DNA of 64,000 nt from Gammaproteobacteria bacterium. Its GTDB lineage: Bacteria; Pseudomonadota; Gammaproteobacteria; JAKEHO01. The notes beneath the pieces were generated by a model, which did not search any database, was not told the DNA's origin, and worked only from the letters and a program-made list of their open reading frames with translations. Positions 2,540-5,686 of this stretch are shown in pieces. The stretch lies in assembly GCA_022614965.1 (NCBI GenBank), contig JAKEHO010000043.1, forward strand, positions 10,950 to 74,949, in the 5' to 3' direction. The position numbers and the translations under genes were made by a program. How positions within the stretch are numbered: the first letter of the stretch is position 1; every line of letters starts with the position of its first letter.

Positions 2540-3574
2540 CTAATCGGGAATTGAACTGCCAGACTTGCGTCCGAGCGTCCGACTACTCTGTTGTAAAAAT
2601 GGTTGAGGCAGCGAGCCGCGCTCACTGTGCCACATTCCTGTCGAGCTGTAGCGCTCCCCGGTGTCCGAGAGCAAGGTCACGATCGTCCGGTATTTTCCGG
2701 TTGCGGCGATGTGCAACGCACCGTAGACATACGCCCCTGAAGACGGCCCAACAAAGAGTCCGTGCTTGGTCAGGCGCTTGCATACAGCCGTTGCCTGCTC
2801 AATGGTGATAGCGATCCGTTCGTCGATTAGCGATTCATCCAGGATTGCAGGAACGATGTCATCAGGCTCGCCAAGGGGTTTAAGGCCCTCTATCCCTGGA
2901 AAGCGCTCCGGGATCACCGCGGCAATGTGAATGTCAGGGTTCACCTCACGCAGGCGTCTCCCCACCCCCGTGATGGTGCCGCCCGTACCGACACCCGCGA
3001 CGAAGGCGTCTGGCAATAAACCGGTTTGAGCTCGCAACTGTGTGAGGATCTCCCGACCCGTGTCCTCGTAGTGGGCCCGCCAGTTATCCTCATTACTGTA
3101 CTGGTCGCAGTACCAGTAGCGCTCAGGAAATTCTTCGGCAAGCCGATGAGCCTCTAACAGGGCAAAATCGTAGCCCTTGAGAGGATCCGTCAAGACCAAC
3201 TCCGCGCCATGCGCCGCAATGCGATCGAGCCGTTCTTTGCTCGCATTGCCGGGTACCACGATGGTTACCGGTATCCCAAGTGCGGCGCCAAGCATTGCAT
3301 AAGAAATGCCTGCGTTTCCCGAAGATGAATCGAGCAATCGACGACCGCCTTCGAGCCTTCCTTCCTGAAGCGCCTGAGTTAGCATGCGCGCAACCGGCCG
3401 ATCCTTGATGGAACCCCCGGGATTTAAGGCTTCAAGCTTTGCAAACAGCCGGGCGGCAGGCGCCGCTTCCGTTACTAGATCCAATTCGAGCAGAGGGGTA
3501 TTGCCGATGCAGGCGATCAGGCCTCCGGCTTCGATGCTTGTTTCAGGCTTTGCTTGGCTCGCGTGAGGTTGCAT
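2540..3574 (-). CDS. cysM: PLP-dependent cysteine synthase family protein (CysM-like)
   Basis: IGNTPL, KLEALNPGGSIKDR (PLP lysine), SSSGNAG, GVGTGGT, VGPSSGA. Start moved to ATG 3574 to avoid overlap with the upstream gene. Confidence 0.85.
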   Translation of the reverse strand: MQPHASQAKPETSIEAGGLIACIGNTPLLELDLVTEAAPAARLFAKLEALNPGGSIKDRPVARMLTQALQEGRLEGGRRLLDSSSGNAGISYAMLGAALGIPVTIVVPGNASKERLDRIAAHGAELVLTDPLKGYDFALLEAHRLAEEFPERYWYCDQYSNEDNWRAHYEDTGREILTQLRAQTGLLPDAFVAGVGTGGTITGVGRRLREVNPDIHIAAVIPERFPGIEGLKPLGEPDDIVPAILDESLIDERIAITIEQATAVCKRLTKHGLFVGPSSGAYVYGALHIAATGKYRTIVTLLSDTGERYSSTGMWHSERGSLPQPFLQQSSRTLGRKSGSSIPD

Positions 3575-3609
3575 GGGGCGGTTCCCTCTATGGCGGCATC
3601 GTGTTCTGT

Positions 3610-5064
3610 TCAGGCATTCGAGGCCGCACAAAATGCCTCGTAATCCACATAGCCGGGGAACTCCGCATGATCGCCGCAGTAGGCGCAGCTCGGGTTGCGA
3701 GGGAGTTTAAGCTCTGAGAAGCGGGCCTTGAGCGCGTCGTAATAGAGCAGTGTGCCGATTAGTGGCTCGCCGACTTCCAATATCAGCTTGATGGTTTCAA
3801 CCGCTTGGAGCACACCGATGACCCCCGGCAGGACGCCCAAGACGCCCGCCTCAGCGCAGGAGGGGCCCAGTTCCGGTGGAGGTGGCTCTGGATACACACA
3901 TCGGTAGCAGGGCCCATGGTGCTTCGGATAGGCTGGCCAGAAGACAGAGACCTGACCCTCAAAGCGGAACACCGCGCCATGGACATTAGGGATGCCAAGG
4001 CGCACGCAGGCATCATTGACCAGATAGCGGGTCGCAAAATTGTCTGACCCGTCCACCACCACGTCGTAACCACGGAAGATCCTCTCGACGTTGTTAGAAT
4101 CCAACCTAACCTCGTGCTCGTTGACCTTGACACGCGGGTTCAGCGCCTCAAGGGTTGCCCGTGCGGAAGCGACCTTAGGGGTACCCACCCTATCATTGGT
4201 ATGCAGAATTTGCCGTTGCAGGTTACTGAGATCGACGAGATCATGATCGACAATTCCCAATGTGCCAACGCCTGCCGCGGCCAGATAAAACGCCGCGGGC
4301 GAGCCGAGTCCGCCGGCCCCAACCAACAACACCTTGGAGTTCAATAGCTTGAATTGGCCCGCTTCACCCACTTCGGGCATTAAGAGGTGCCGGCTATAGC
4401 GCTCGCGGGCATCATGGTCGAGTATTTGTGGGACCTCGAAGGGCAACCCTTCGTTCTTCCAGCGGTTGAAACCACCGCTAACCGACCGCACGTCCGTATA
4501 TCCAAGACGCTTAAGGTCCTCGGCTGCGAACAAGGAACGCATACCGCTGTTGCAGAATACGAGTACGGTCCGGTCGAGATCGGGTGCCACATCTTCGATC
4601 TTCAATTCCAGATAGCTCCGTCCGAGTGGATGAGCGCCAACAGGGCGACCTTCGGCAATCTCCTCGCGTTCACGTACGTCAATGAGCACAGCCCCACCGC
4701 GCCGTAGCGCCTCGGCCTCGCGAGGGGTTACTTGAGGGATCCCCGCTCTGAGTTCTACCAGCCTGCGGTCTTTGGCCCGCACTCCGACACCACCGGCGAC
4801 AGCCGGCACGATCGACAACACGTCACCGTCGGACAGGGCAGTATCTAACCCATTAAGCGAGTTCACATTCTCATTTCCAAGATAAATATTGACGAAATTC
4901 CGCAACTGGCCTTTTGGCGTCATCACCCGCTCGACGATGCCGCCATGGGCCCTACCAAGGGCCTTCAGCGCCTCGCCCACGGTTGTTCCTGCAACGACAA
5001 CCTCGTCGGCGCCCTCAGCAAAGGTCCGCAATGGCATCGGGATCCGGATGGTTACGTCGGCCAT
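3610..5064 (-). CDS. MoaD/CysO-like ubiquitin-like sulfur carrier fused to rhodanese and MoeB/ThiF (E1-like) adenylyltransferase
   Basis: Residues 1-92 are beta-grasp-like and end in IVPAVAGG. Rhodanese follows (LIDVRE...VFCNSGMRS), then E1 (RYSRHLLMPEVG, VGAGGLGS, SNLQRQ, PCYRC, PSCAEAGVLG, CAYCG, DYEAFC). No stop codon after GG. Confidence 0.93.
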   Translation of the reverse strand: MADVTIRIPMPLRTFAEGADEVVVAGTTVGEALKALGRAHGGIVERVMTPKGQLRNFVNIYLGNENVNSLNGLDTALSDGDVLSIVPAVAGGVGVRAKDRRLVELRAGIPQVTPREAEALRRGGAVLIDVREREEIAEGRPVGAHPLGRSYLELKIEDVAPDLDRTVLVFCNSGMRSLFAAEDLKRLGYTDVRSVSGGFNRWKNEGLPFEVPQILDHDARERYSRHLLMPEVGEAGQFKLLNSKVLLVGAGGLGSPAAFYLAAAGVGTLGIVDHDLVDLSNLQRQILHTNDRVGTPKVASARATLEALNPRVKVNEHEVRLDSNNVERIFRGYDVVVDGSDNFATRYLVNDACVRLGIPNVHGAVFRFEGQVSVFWPAYPKHHGPCYRCVYPEPPPPELGPSCAEAGVLGVLPGVIGVLQAVETIKLILEVGEPLIGTLLYYDALKARFSELKLPRNPSCAYCGDHAEFPGYVDYEAFCAASNA

Positions 5065-5480
5065 GTCTCAATACCCTCCTCAACAAACTGTCGCTTTCCA
5101 TTGAGCCGCCACGAGCGTACATCCGCCACCCCCTCGCGGGTCACTGACAGGATCACATAGGACCAGCCCTCCCAGGCCAACGTTCGGTCTGTTTCCGAAG
5201 GCTGGGCAGGATGCTCTGGGTGGGAATGCCAGATCCCGACGATTTCAAGCCCCCGGCGTTTCGCTTCCTGATCGGCGCTGAGCATATCGTCGGGGGCCAG
5301 CTCATATCGGTCATAGGCTCTCTCCGTGTTTAGATTGCGCGCGGTCATGACACGGCATACGTTGACAGCATCCTTGGTCACCTTCCCAGTCATAAGCCCA
5401 CAAACCTCATACGGGTATCCCGCCATCACAATGGATTTGAGGCTGCCGAGTACCTCCTTCGGTATGCGCAGGCCCGCCAT
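5052..5480 (-). CDS. JAB/JAMM (M67) metalloprotease, Mec-like
   Basis: YPYEVCGL plus WHSHPEHPAQPSETD fits the JAMM E...HxH-x7-S-x2-D motif. Overlaps the start of the Ubl fusion gene. Confidence 0.92.
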   Translation of the reverse strand: MAGLRIPKEVLGSLKSIVMAGYPYEVCGLMTGKVTKDAVNVCRVMTARNLNTERAYDRYELAPDDMLSADQEAKRRGLEIVGIWHSHPEHPAQPSETDRTLAWEGWSYVILSVTREGVADVRSWRLNGKRQFVEEGIETWPT

Positions 5481-5686
5481 GACTCAATACTATACTGATT
5501 GCCTAGGTTATTGTGAACGTTCGCCAGCTCAAAACGACAGTGGCCCCGCGGTGTCAATGTGTTAATGGAGTGCAAGCAACCATCAAAAGTTGCCTGTATT
5601 ATGGTGGACGGTGCGCGGCCCGCAGCCACGGCATTGGCGCACAAGCGCGAAGCAACACAAACCCGTACTACTTAACGCTTCTGACA

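What the first reader, a model, noticed from the sequence alone, without database searches (positions are those of the whole stretch)
3610..5480. Ubl-rhodanese-E1 polyprotein that needs cleavage, with its JAMM protease upstream
Seen: a 92-aa MoaD/CysO-like domain ends in AVAG91G92 (codons 4794-4789) and continues in frame (VGVRAKDRR) into a rhodanese and a MoeB/ThiF domain. A JAMM gene overlaps its start. Known: E1 adenylation needs a free C-terminal Gly carboxylate, and JAMM proteases cleave after Ubl di-Gly. Inference: the carrier and its activating enzyme are made 1:1 as one precursor and separated by the adjacent JAMM, like eukaryotic ubiquitin-fusion processing. A GTG at 4782 might also allow separate E1 translation, but the Ubl could still only be freed by proteolysis.
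Basis: partly seen in the sequence, partly recalled or inferred. Interest (0 to 1): 0.75.

Follow-up and report, generated by a model that had tools for sequence, protein, structure and literature searches.

The report
Sulfur carrier fused to its activator
A small ubiquitin-like sulfur-carrier protein is encoded in one chain with the enzyme that must activate its free tail, beside a protease that most likely cuts it loose. The layout is real and widespread, but it is an untested variant of a known cysteine-making pathway, not a new principle.

Summary
ORF 3610-5064(-) encodes 484 aa: a CysO-like ThiS/MoaD domain ending AVAG91G92, then in frame a rhodanese and a MoeB/ThiF E1. An intact JAMM gene overlaps its start by 13 nt, and a CysM-type cysteine synthase follows.

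It is not a sequencing error. 119 of the best 120 protein clusters have the same three domains. PAVAGG is invariant, and a variable 2-10-residue linker follows. AlphaFold is unsure only at the junction and at the E1 Cys loop.

All 21 assessable fused loci have a JAMM gene directly upstream. Relatives with separate genes mostly leave 1-11 extra residues after GG, because the genes overlap. Trimming after GG is therefore general in this family. Fusion and fission each happened several times.

Other fusions also occur: carrier-CysM and JAMM-carrier-rhodanese-E1.

Best reading (about 0.7): this is a Mycobacterium-type CysO/Mec+/CysM/MoeZ cysteine pathway. The operon JAMM both frees the carrier and later releases cysteine.

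JAMM cleavage of fused or tailed sulfur carriers was proposed in 2006. It has been shown for MoaD-MoaE. Cleavage of this carrier-E1 fusion is untested. Verdict: new variant of a known kind, moderate interest.

The parts
5489..5517 (-). Promoter-like site (TTCACA-17-TATAGT, 10 of 12 matches) just upstream of the JAMM start. It is the likely operon promoter.
   Evidence: This is a consensus match only.
5052..5480 (-). JAMM/MPN+ metalloprotease (Mec+-like), 142 aa, with E25, H85-S-H87, S95 and D98 intact. Its 3' end holds the GAGGAGGG ribosome-binding site of the next gene and overlaps that gene's ATG by 13 nt.
   Evidence: Pfam Prok-JAB E 1.6e-26. PDB sequence matches: 2kcq at 2.2e-23 and Pyrococcus JAMM1 5lda at 1.2e-11, with the motif aligned. 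Sequence read.
3610..5064 (-). The 484-aa fusion ORF: CysO-like Ubl, linker, rhodanese, then MoeB/ThiF E1.
4789..5064 (-). Ubl (beta-grasp, CysO-like) domain, residues 1-92, ending P87-A-V-A-G91-G92. The GG codons are 4794-4789.
   Evidence: Pfam ThiS E 8.5e-13. The best solved-structure match is M. tuberculosis CysO 3dwg_C, E 1.3e-15, aligned end to end. P87, V89, G91 and G92 have entropy 0, and A88 and A90 have 0.27 and 0.10 bits, in 80 sequences.
4777..4788 (-). Junction and linker V93-G94-V95-R96, the proposed JAMM cleavage site between G92 and V93. GTG at 4782-4780 (V95) corresponds to the start codon of the E1 gene in unfused relatives.
   Evidence: Column entropy is 2.2-3.3 bits with indels. 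AF2 pLDDT is below 50 for residues 89-95. NF006444 full-length MoeB model position 3 aligns to residue 98. Split relatives start the E1 gene here.
4450..4725 (-). Rhodanese domain, residues 114-205. The active-site loop is C171-N-S-G-M-R-S, and the Cys171 codon is 4554-4552.
   Evidence: Pfam E 1.9e-14. C171, G174 and R176 are invariant.
3685..4398 (-). MoeB/ThiF E1 adenylation domain, residues 223-460. It has the GAGGLGS nucleotide loop, SNLQRQ, D341, two CxxC zinc motifs (C386/C389 and C460/C463) and the loop Cys403.
   Evidence: Pfam ThiF E 1.6e-82. Foldseek TM 0.96 and rmsd 1.5 A to E. coli MoeB 1jw9_B. Invariant columns.
2540..3574 (-). CysM/CysK-family PLP-dependent cysteine synthase, 344 aa counted from the ATG at 3574, which lies 35 nt after the fusion's stop.
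   Evidence: Pfam PALP E 1.8e-64. It falls below every NCBIfam equivalog cut-off. PDB sequence matches include M. tuberculosis CysM 3dki at 1.9e-41. A second, 37%-identical cysteine synthase lies elsewhere in the genome.

Best explanation
This is a three-gene operon, JAMM - [CysO-like Ubl::rhodanese::MoeB-type E1] - CysM. It encodes a protein-thiocarboxylate route to cysteine of the kind reconstituted in Mycobacterium tuberculosis (Mec+/CysO/CysM plus MoeZ).

The proposed sequence of events is as follows. All biochemical steps are inferred by homology; none is shown for this protein.
1. The carrier and its activating enzyme are translated as one 484-aa precursor.
2. The operon's JAMM metalloprotease hydrolyses the Gly92-Val93 bond. 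This releases a 92-aa carrier ending ...AVAGG and a 392-aa rhodanese-E1.
3. The E1 adenylates the Gly92 carboxylate, and the persulfide on rhodanese Cys171 converts it to a thiocarboxylate.
4. CysM condenses the thiocarboxylate with an activated serine, giving carrier-Gly-Gly-Cys after an S-to-N acyl shift.
5. The same JAMM cuts after GG again, releasing cysteine and recycling the carrier.

The fusion itself looks like a nearly neutral by-product of gene overlap. In unfused relatives the carrier gene runs a few codons into the E1 gene, so the carrier already needs JAMM trimming. A small indel or loss of the stop codon then joins the frames without loss of function.
For: Domain content and catalytic motifs are intact. 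The Ubl is closest to M. tuberculosis CysO.

The fusion is conserved in 119 of the best 120 clusters and in several phyla. It also occurs in the cultured isolates Inmirania thermothiophila (P0118, L090) and Roseateles aquae (L033).

PAVAGG is essentially invariant, and the next three columns have 2.2-3.3 bits of entropy plus indels. The only AF2 segments below pLDDT 50 are 89-95 (the junction) and 401-408.

JAMM lies immediately upstream in 21 of 21 assessable fused loci. The comparison figures are 8 of 15 split loci and 5 of 27 loci with no adjacent Ubl. CysM lies downstream in 17 of 22 fused loci.

13 of 15 split carriers have 1-11 residues after GG, created by overlap with the E1 start.

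The fused state needs at least 6 to 10 changes on the E1 tree.

Only 5 of 21 fused genes keep an in-frame start 2-5 codons after GG, so in most of them the E1 can only be made as the fusion.

In the same-genus genome (97% complete) the only ThiS-family hits are a MoaD-like one, a ThiS-like one and the fusion. The fused domain is therefore the only CysO-like carrier available there.

Precedent exists. JAMM enzymes cleave linear MoaD-MoaE and SAMP1-MoaE fusions (PMC8832034, PMC4443979). Iyer et al. 2006 proposed JAB release of fused ThiS/MoaD (PMC1779556).
Against: No biochemical or proteomic evidence of cleavage exists for any member of this family.

A JAMM is expected in this pathway whether or not the carrier is fused, because Mec+ hydrolyses CysO-Cys. 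Adjacency therefore does not prove precursor processing.

This genome has a second JAMM next to a second MoeB (C105), and two free CysO-like Ubls with clean GG stops (C117, C44). Another protease or another carrier is conceivable here.

The CysM homologue scores below every NCBIfam equivalog cut-off and is not especially close to M. tuberculosis CysM. The amino-acid product is therefore inferred.

Five of 22 fused loci lack an adjacent CysM.

The loci compared are not phylogenetically independent.
Confidence: 0.7

Rival explanations
1. The N-terminal Ubl domain is never released. It is a structural or regulatory domain of the E1, as proposed for the Ubl fused to some ThiF proteins. The real carriers for CysM would be free Ubls encoded elsewhere, such as C117:53457-53792 and C44:2962-3249 in this genome. 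The JAMM would serve only to release cysteine from carrier-Cys.
For: Two free CysO-like Ubls with clean GG stops exist in this genome, at 39-43% identity to the fused domain. Iyer et al. 2006 describe ThiS-ThiF fusions that coexist with a solo ThiS. JAMM is needed in the pathway regardless of fusion.
Against: PAVAGG is essentially invariant at the domain end and is followed at once by the most variable columns. This is hard to explain for a tail that is never used. No second Ubl lies within about 4 kb in any fused locus. The same-genus genome and G307 have no extra CysO-like Ubl. Fused and split forms interleave on the tree, and in split forms the same Ubl is the operon's only carrier. Both free Ubls here sit beside BNR-propeller genes, not sulfur enzymes.
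Confidence: 0.08
2. The precursor is cleaved after GG, but not by the adjacent JAMM. The cut would be made by another protease, by the second JAMM at C105:8918-9325, or by autoprocessing. The operon JAMM would act only on carrier-Cys.
For: A second JAMM exists in the genome. In the papers read here, no protease was named for the M. tuberculosis MoaX (MoaD-MoaE) fusion, which is known to need cleavage (PMC4326299, seen). Planctomycetota loci have tailed carriers and no JAMM within 4 kb.
Against: JAMM is adjacent in 21 of 21 fused loci. The bond to be cut (Gly-Gly|X) is chemically the same as in carrier-Cys. Two natural proteins even carry the JAMM in the same chain as the carrier and the E1. 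From my own knowledge, not checked here: QbsD and HcyD each trim the tail of their cognate carriers.
Confidence: 0.1
3. The E1 is mainly made separately, from the internal GTG at 4782. The full-length fusion would be a minor read-through product with little functional role.
For: The GTG at V95 sits where unfused relatives start their E1 gene, and it is kept in the same-genus genome.
Against: There is no stop codon between the domains, so every ribosome that starts at 5064 makes the fusion, and the carrier can be made only in fused form. Sixteen of 21 fused genes have no in-frame start 2-5 codons after GG. Only 3 of 21 keep the GGAGG-type Gly codons that serve as a ribosome-binding site in split loci.
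Confidence: 0.07
4. The fusion is a local mutation, frameshift or assembly error in this metagenome-assembled genome.
For: The genome is a 119-contig MAG that is 87% complete.
Against: The same architecture occurs in 119 of the best 120 clusters, in a congeneric genome at 86% identity, and in cultured isolates.
Confidence: 0.01

Closest known systems
Mycobacterium tuberculosis Mec+ (Rv1334) / CysO (Rv1335) / CysM (Rv1336) with MoeZR (Rv3206c): protein-thiocarboxylate-dependent cysteine biosynthesis. Burns et al. 2005 and O'Leary et al. 2008 are cited from my own knowledge; MoeZR is from PMC3227635.
   Same: It has the same four functions: a JAMM hydrolase, a CysO-like beta-grasp carrier ending GG, a CysM-family PLP enzyme, and an E1 with a rhodanese domain. 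The Ubl's best solved-structure match is CysO itself.
   Different: Here the carrier is fused in frame to the E1, whereas in M. tuberculosis it is a free 93-aa protein ending at GG and MoeZ is unlinked. The rhodanese is N-terminal to the E1 here and C-terminal in MoeZ. The E1 scores below the MoeZ NCBIfam cut-off (379 against 647 bits) but above that of NF006444. The CysM is not especially close to M. tuberculosis CysM. The host is a gammaproteobacterial MAG.
JAMM-processed linear sulfur-carrier fusions: Deinococcus DRJAMM with MoaD-MoaE (PMC8832034), Haloferax HvJAMM1 with SAMP1-MoaE (PMC4443979), and M. tuberculosis MoaX (PMC4326299).
   Same: A ThiS/MoaD-family carrier is made as the N-terminal part of a partner enzyme. 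It must be cut after its C-terminal Gly to work, and a JAMM/MPN+ enzyme does the cutting (no protease was named for MoaX in the papers read here).
   Different: In those cases the partner is the sulfur acceptor enzyme MoaE. Here the partner is the activating enzyme (rhodanese-E1). Cleavage has not been tested for this family.
Tailed carriers trimmed by an operon JAMM: QbsE/QbsD (thioquinolobactin) and HcyS/HcyD (Wolinella homocysteine).
   Same: The carrier is encoded with extra residues after GG and a JAMM gene sits in the operon. The split relatives found here have 1-11-residue tails.
   Different: Those tails are 1-2 residues long. Here the 'tail' is a 392-aa enzyme.
Iyer, Burroughs and Aravind 2006 (PMC1779556): operon classes 4b and 4c (ThiS/MoaD, E1+rhodanese, JAB, with or without cysteine synthase), and the ThiS-ThiF fusions of class 1.
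   Same: The gene neighbourhood is class 4c. [quoted passage not shown]
   Different: The text and tables I could read do not name a ThiS/MoaD-rhodanese-E1 chain. The figures are not held, so I cannot exclude that one is drawn there. The catalogued ThiS-ThiF fusions lie in thiamine operons, with a second solo ThiS and no JAB.

Membership tests
CysO/Mec+/CysM/MoeZ-type protein-thiocarboxylate cysteine pathway | ThiS/MoaD-fold carrier whose chain ends in Gly-Gly | tested here: inconclusive
   The fold and the GG motif are present (Pfam ThiS E 8.5e-13; CysO 3dwg_C E 1.3e-15; GG invariant). However, GG is internal in the translation product, so a free C-terminus needs an unproven cleavage.
CysO/Mec+/CysM/MoeZ-type protein-thiocarboxylate cysteine pathway | E1-like adenylyltransferase combined with a rhodanese sulfurtransferase domain | tested here: met
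   ThiF E 1.6e-82 and Rhodanese E 1.9e-14. Catalytic residues are invariant. TM 0.96 to MoeB. The domain order is reversed relative to MoeZ, and the MoeZ equivalog cut-off is not reached.
CysO/Mec+/CysM/MoeZ-type protein-thiocarboxylate cysteine pathway | JAMM/MPN+ hydrolase with an intact metal site in the same operon | tested here: met
   Prok-JAB E 1.6e-26. E25, H85, H87, S95 and D98 align to Pyrococcus JAMM1. The gene overlaps the fusion gene by 13 nt.
CysO/Mec+/CysM/MoeZ-type protein-thiocarboxylate cysteine pathway | CysM-type PLP enzyme that accepts the carrier thiocarboxylate | tested here: inconclusive
   A PALP cysteine-synthase family member lies directly downstream. It scores below all NCBIfam equivalog cut-offs. 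Substrate specificity cannot be read from the sequence with these tools.
CysO/Mec+/CysM/MoeZ-type protein-thiocarboxylate cysteine pathway | Demonstrated thiocarboxylate formation and cysteine release | not testable with these tools
   Needs biochemistry.
JAMM-processed sulfur-carrier precursors (MoaD-MoaE with DRJAMM, SAMP1-MoaE with HvJAMM1, QbsE/QbsD, HcyS/HcyD) | Carrier encoded with residues C-terminal to the GG motif | tested here: met
   392 residues follow G92 in frame. Relatives carry 1-11-residue tails.
JAMM-processed sulfur-carrier precursors (MoaD-MoaE with DRJAMM, SAMP1-MoaE with HvJAMM1, QbsE/QbsD, HcyS/HcyD) | Cognate JAMM encoded with the carrier | tested here: met
   21 of 21 assessable fused loci have JAMM directly upstream.
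JAMM-processed sulfur-carrier precursors (MoaD-MoaE with DRJAMM, SAMP1-MoaE with HvJAMM1, QbsE/QbsD, HcyS/HcyD) | Cleavage after GG shown experimentally | not testable with these tools
   No experiment on this family was found in four literature searches.
NCBIfam NF006444 (PRK08762), named 'molybdopterin-synthase adenylyltransferase MoeB' | Full-length match above the curated cut-off | tested here: met
   618.8 bits against a cut-off of 449. Residues 98-482 match model positions 3-386 of 387. The name is doubtful here. The operon partner is CysM, and a canonical MoaD-MoaE pair (C29) and a second MoeB (C105) lie elsewhere.
ThiS-ThiF fusions of thiamine operons (Iyer et al. 2006, Table 1 row 1) | Thiamine-gene context with a second solo ThiS and no JAB | tested here: not met
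   There is no second Ubl and there are no thiamine genes within the operon. JAMM and CysM flank the fusion. ThiS-ThiG lie on another contig.

The most novel reading that the evidence does not exclude
The fusion, and the tails seen in split relatives, may not be neutral. They could be a selected pro-form in which the carrier and its E1 are made inactive, so that JAMM cleavage becomes the committed and possibly sulfur- or redox-gated step that switches the pathway on. The rare JAMM-carrier-rhodanese-E1 chains (L033, P0241) would then be self-contained, self-activating polyproteins.
Probability: 0.12. Interest if true: 0.6.

Novelty: new variant of a known kind. Interest (0 to 1): 0.38.

Why it matters
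If cleavage is confirmed, this would be the first sulfur-carrier system in which the Ubl is made as a precursor joined to its own E1. That would be a bacterial counterpart of ubiquitin-fusion precursors processed by a deubiquitinase-type enzyme. It would also show that a single JAMM both matures the carrier and releases the product.

In practical terms, hundreds of database entries named 'molybdopterin-synthase adenylyltransferase MoeB' are more likely part of a cysteine pathway and also contain the carrier. The family offers an easy test system, because Inmirania thermothiophila and Roseateles aquae are cultured.

It does not change current understanding of how these pathways work. The idea was put forward in 2006.

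Tried and rejected
1. Assembly or frameshift error: rejected.
2. Long stop-to-stop frames of 578-643 aa suggested JAMM fused in frame in G039, G080, G307 and G394. tblastn showed JAMM in another frame or behind a stop. A true four-domain chain exists only in L033 and P0241.
3. Apparent CysM-JAMM and Ubl-CysM-JAMM fusions in Actinomycetota are GC-rich open frames whose upstream translation is nonsense. Only the Ubl-CysM fusions are real.
4. A conserved internal start for the E1: not supported.
5. Burroughs et al. 2009 (PMC2732565) is not held. The figures of Iyer et al. 2006 are not held either, so I could not see whether the triple fusion is drawn there.
7. Model coordinates are not exposed, so docking of the Ubl tail on the E1 or on JAMM could not be examined.
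Full report
OBSERVATION

On the minus strand the window has three co-oriented genes:
- a 142-aa JAMM gene (5480-5052);
- a 484-aa ORF (5064-3610) that starts 13 nt before the JAMM stop, behind a GAGGAGGG ribosome-binding site;
- 35 nt further on, a 344-aa cysteine-synthase homologue (3574-2540).

A promoter-like site (TTCACA-17-TATAGT) lies at 5517-5489. The flanking genes, glnD and mutH, are on the other strand, so this is a self-contained operon.

Pfam places ThiS at residues 7-92, Rhodanese at 114-205 and ThiF at 223-460 of the 484-aa protein. It assigns Prok-JAB to the first gene and PALP to the third.

Residues 98-482 match the full length of NCBIfam NF006444, a 387-aa 'MoeB' with an N-terminal rhodanese, at 618.8 bits against a cut-off of 449. 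The extra part is therefore the Ubl plus a short linker.

The JAMM keeps E25, H85-S-H87, S95 and D98, aligned to Pyrococcus JAMM1. The Ubl's best solved relative is M. tuberculosis CysO, matched end to end (3dwg_C, E 1.3e-15). The E1 model superposes on E. coli MoeB at TM 0.96.

IS THE FUSION REAL?

Yes. Of the best 120 protein clusters found with the whole protein, 119 carry ThiS+Rhodanese+ThiF, at 458-490 aa and 65-86% identity. A genome of the same genus has the fusion at 86% identity, with the same JAMM and CysM neighbours.

Named sources include Gammaproteobacteria, Acidiferrobacterales, Burkholderiales, Competibacteraceae and the isolate Inmirania thermothiophila. More distant fused copies occur in MAGs labelled Gemmatimonadota, Planctomycetota, Nitrospirota and Chloroflexota.

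In a sample of 400 genomes of the window's class, 9 have the fused form. About 30 have the unfused rhodanese-E1 orthologue.

THE JUNCTION

In 80 aligned sequences P87, V89, G91 and G92 have zero entropy, and A88 and A90 are nearly invariant. The next three occupied columns have 2.2-3.3 bits, and the linker varies in length. Conservation resumes at (K/R)A(K/R)DRRL.EL.

AlphaFold2 gives mean pLDDT 87.3. Only two segments fall below 50: residues 89-95 (the junction) and 401-408 (the E1 loop with Cys403). This is the pattern expected for a functional Ubl C-terminus followed by a flexible, exposed linker.

CONTEXT IN RELATIVES

I fetched 80 loci from species-representative genomes and 7 more from the class sample. 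I located the five modules by tblastn and found JAMM with an iterated profile.

Twenty-two distinct loci are fused, counting the window. Twenty-one can be assessed, and all 21 have JAMM directly upstream. Seventeen of the 22 have CysM directly downstream.

JAMM is adjacent in 8 of 15 loci where the Ubl is a separate gene in front of the E1, and in 5 of 27 loci with no adjacent Ubl. Fisher p values are 8e-4 and 3e-9. These are indicative only, because the loci are related to each other.

WHAT THE SPLIT LOCI SHOW

In 13 of 15 split loci the carrier gene does not stop at GG. It runs 1-11 codons further, because it overlaps the start of the E1 gene. Examples are ...AVAGGRA* with ATGA overlap and ...AVAGGRHEGEG*. 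In several split loci the Ala-Gly-Gly codons (GCx GGA GGx) themselves form the GGAGG ribosome-binding site of the E1 gene.

In the Actinomycetota-type arrangement (E1, Ubl, CysM, JAMM) most carriers are tailed too. A few tails begin with Cys (GGC*), which is the exact product-adduct that Mec+ hydrolyses.

Trimming after GG is therefore a general requirement of this family, not a peculiarity of the fusion. L022 (…SVAGG* LMSMRERRM…, same frame) shows the state one stop codon away from a fusion.

On a tree of the rhodanese-E1 part, fused and unfused forms interleave. At least 6 changes are forced by well-supported branches, and parsimony counts 10. Fusion and fission have thus happened repeatedly. 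This fits a nearly neutral event in a system that already has the processing enzyme.

ALTERNATIVES

Internal initiation. The window's GTG at V95 sits where unfused relatives start the E1, and it is kept in the congener. However, 16 of 21 fused genes have no in-frame start 2-5 codons after GG, and only 3 keep GGA-GGx codons. Separate translation of the E1 is therefore not a conserved feature. The carrier in any case exists only in fused form.

An uncleaved structural Ubl, with other carriers doing the work. This genome has two further CysO-like Ubls with clean GG stops. Both sit beside BNR/Sortilin-type propeller genes. The same-genus genome (97% complete) has only a MoaD-like hit, a ThiS-like hit and the fusion, and G307 has only two hits in all.

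Another protease. A second JAMM lies right after a second MoeB on contig C105. This cannot be excluded.

MECHANISM

The most likely course is this. The precursor is translated. The operon JAMM cuts G92|V93. The E1 adenylates Gly92. The persulfide on rhodanese Cys171 gives the thiocarboxylate. CysM forms carrier-Cys. The same JAMM then releases cysteine.

What is shown here is domain content, intact catalytic residues, conservation, context and predicted disorder at the junction. Every chemical step is inferred by homology to the M. tuberculosis pathway (my own knowledge of Burns et al. 2005; MoeZR in PMC3227635). Cleavage is also inferred from JAMM enzymes shown to cut linear carrier fusions: DRJAMM on MoaD-MoaE (PMC8832034) and HvJAMM1 on SAMP1-MoaE (PMC4443979).

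WHAT IS KNOWN

Iyer, Burroughs and Aravind 2006 listed this neighbourhood as class 4c. They wrote that JAB might cleave fused ThiS/MoaD to free the C-terminus. They also listed ThiS-ThiF fusions, but in thiamine operons with a second solo ThiS and no JAB.

Four full-text searches found no experimental work on a carrier-rhodanese-E1 chain. Automatic annotation already names the parts; JGI product names list all three functions.

Earlier notes of this scan describe the same architecture in at least 22 other genomes, with the same conclusion. I treat these notes as leads only. The tests reported above were done independently on this window.

VERDICT

This is a real, conserved, untested variant of a known pathway and a known processing principle.

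The points this analysis adds are:
- the origin of the fusion in gene overlap, and its repeated fusion and fission;
- the general presence of tails after GG in unfused relatives;
- the lack of a conserved internal start;
- two further fusion types, Ubl-CysM (at least 120 clusters) and JAMM-Ubl-rhodanese-E1 (L033 and P0241).

Noticed in passing
L033:3563-5422 (Roseateles aquae APW11) and protein P0241: JAMM, CysO-like Ubl, rhodanese and E1 lie in one open reading frame (about 620 aa) in two sequences that are 48% identical over the JAMM-Ubl part. Protease, substrate and activating enzyme would be made as a single chain. After a cut at AIAGG|ISF the JAMM would stay attached to the N-terminus of the carrier.
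   Followed up: partly
L047:5155-6363, L055, L056, L075 (Gaiellaceae and other Actinomycetota MAGs): The CysO-like carrier is fused in frame to CysM (...LLPAMAGG-ERTLTPS-LLETIGDTPLVEL...). All of the best 120 clusters found with this protein carry ThiS+PALP. The carrier can therefore be fused to either partner enzyme.
   Followed up: partly
own genome, contig C105:8170-9325 (outside the window): A second E1-JAMM pair: a 262-aa MoeB without rhodanese overlaps a 135-aa Prok-JAB gene, downstream of prfA/prmC. The 2006 survey found no JAB next to classical MoeB or ThiF genes.
   Followed up: partly
own genome, C117:53457-54886 and C44:857-3249 (outside the window): Two free CysO-like Ubls end cleanly in GG. 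Each overlaps a gene for a BNR/Sortilin-Vps10-type beta-propeller protein, and one of these is fused to a Ser/Thr protein kinase. I do not recognise this Ubl-propeller pairing from characterised systems.
   Followed up: partly
L010, L016, L018, L021, L039 (split relatives): The Ala-Gly-Gly codons at the carrier's end (GCx GGA GGx) form the GGAGG ribosome-binding site for the overlapping E1 gene. Fused genes mostly use other Gly codons (3 of 21 keep GGA-GGx).
   Followed up: partly
L063 (…AMAGGC*), L024 (…AIAGGCSDCAAG*), L036 (…GGSSPCCCKGRRG*): Some encoded carrier tails start with or contain Cys. A chain ending GG-Cys is the same as the carrier-cysteine adduct that Mec+-type JAMMs hydrolyse.
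   Followed up: no
L036, L045, L059, L076: These relatives have two tandem rhodanese domains in front of the E1 domain instead of one.
   Followed up: no
window 2540-3631: The longest ORF for the CysM homologue starts at a TTG (3631) that overlaps the fusion's end. The ATG at 3574, behind a GAGGGA ribosome-binding site, is the more plausible start.
   Followed up: no
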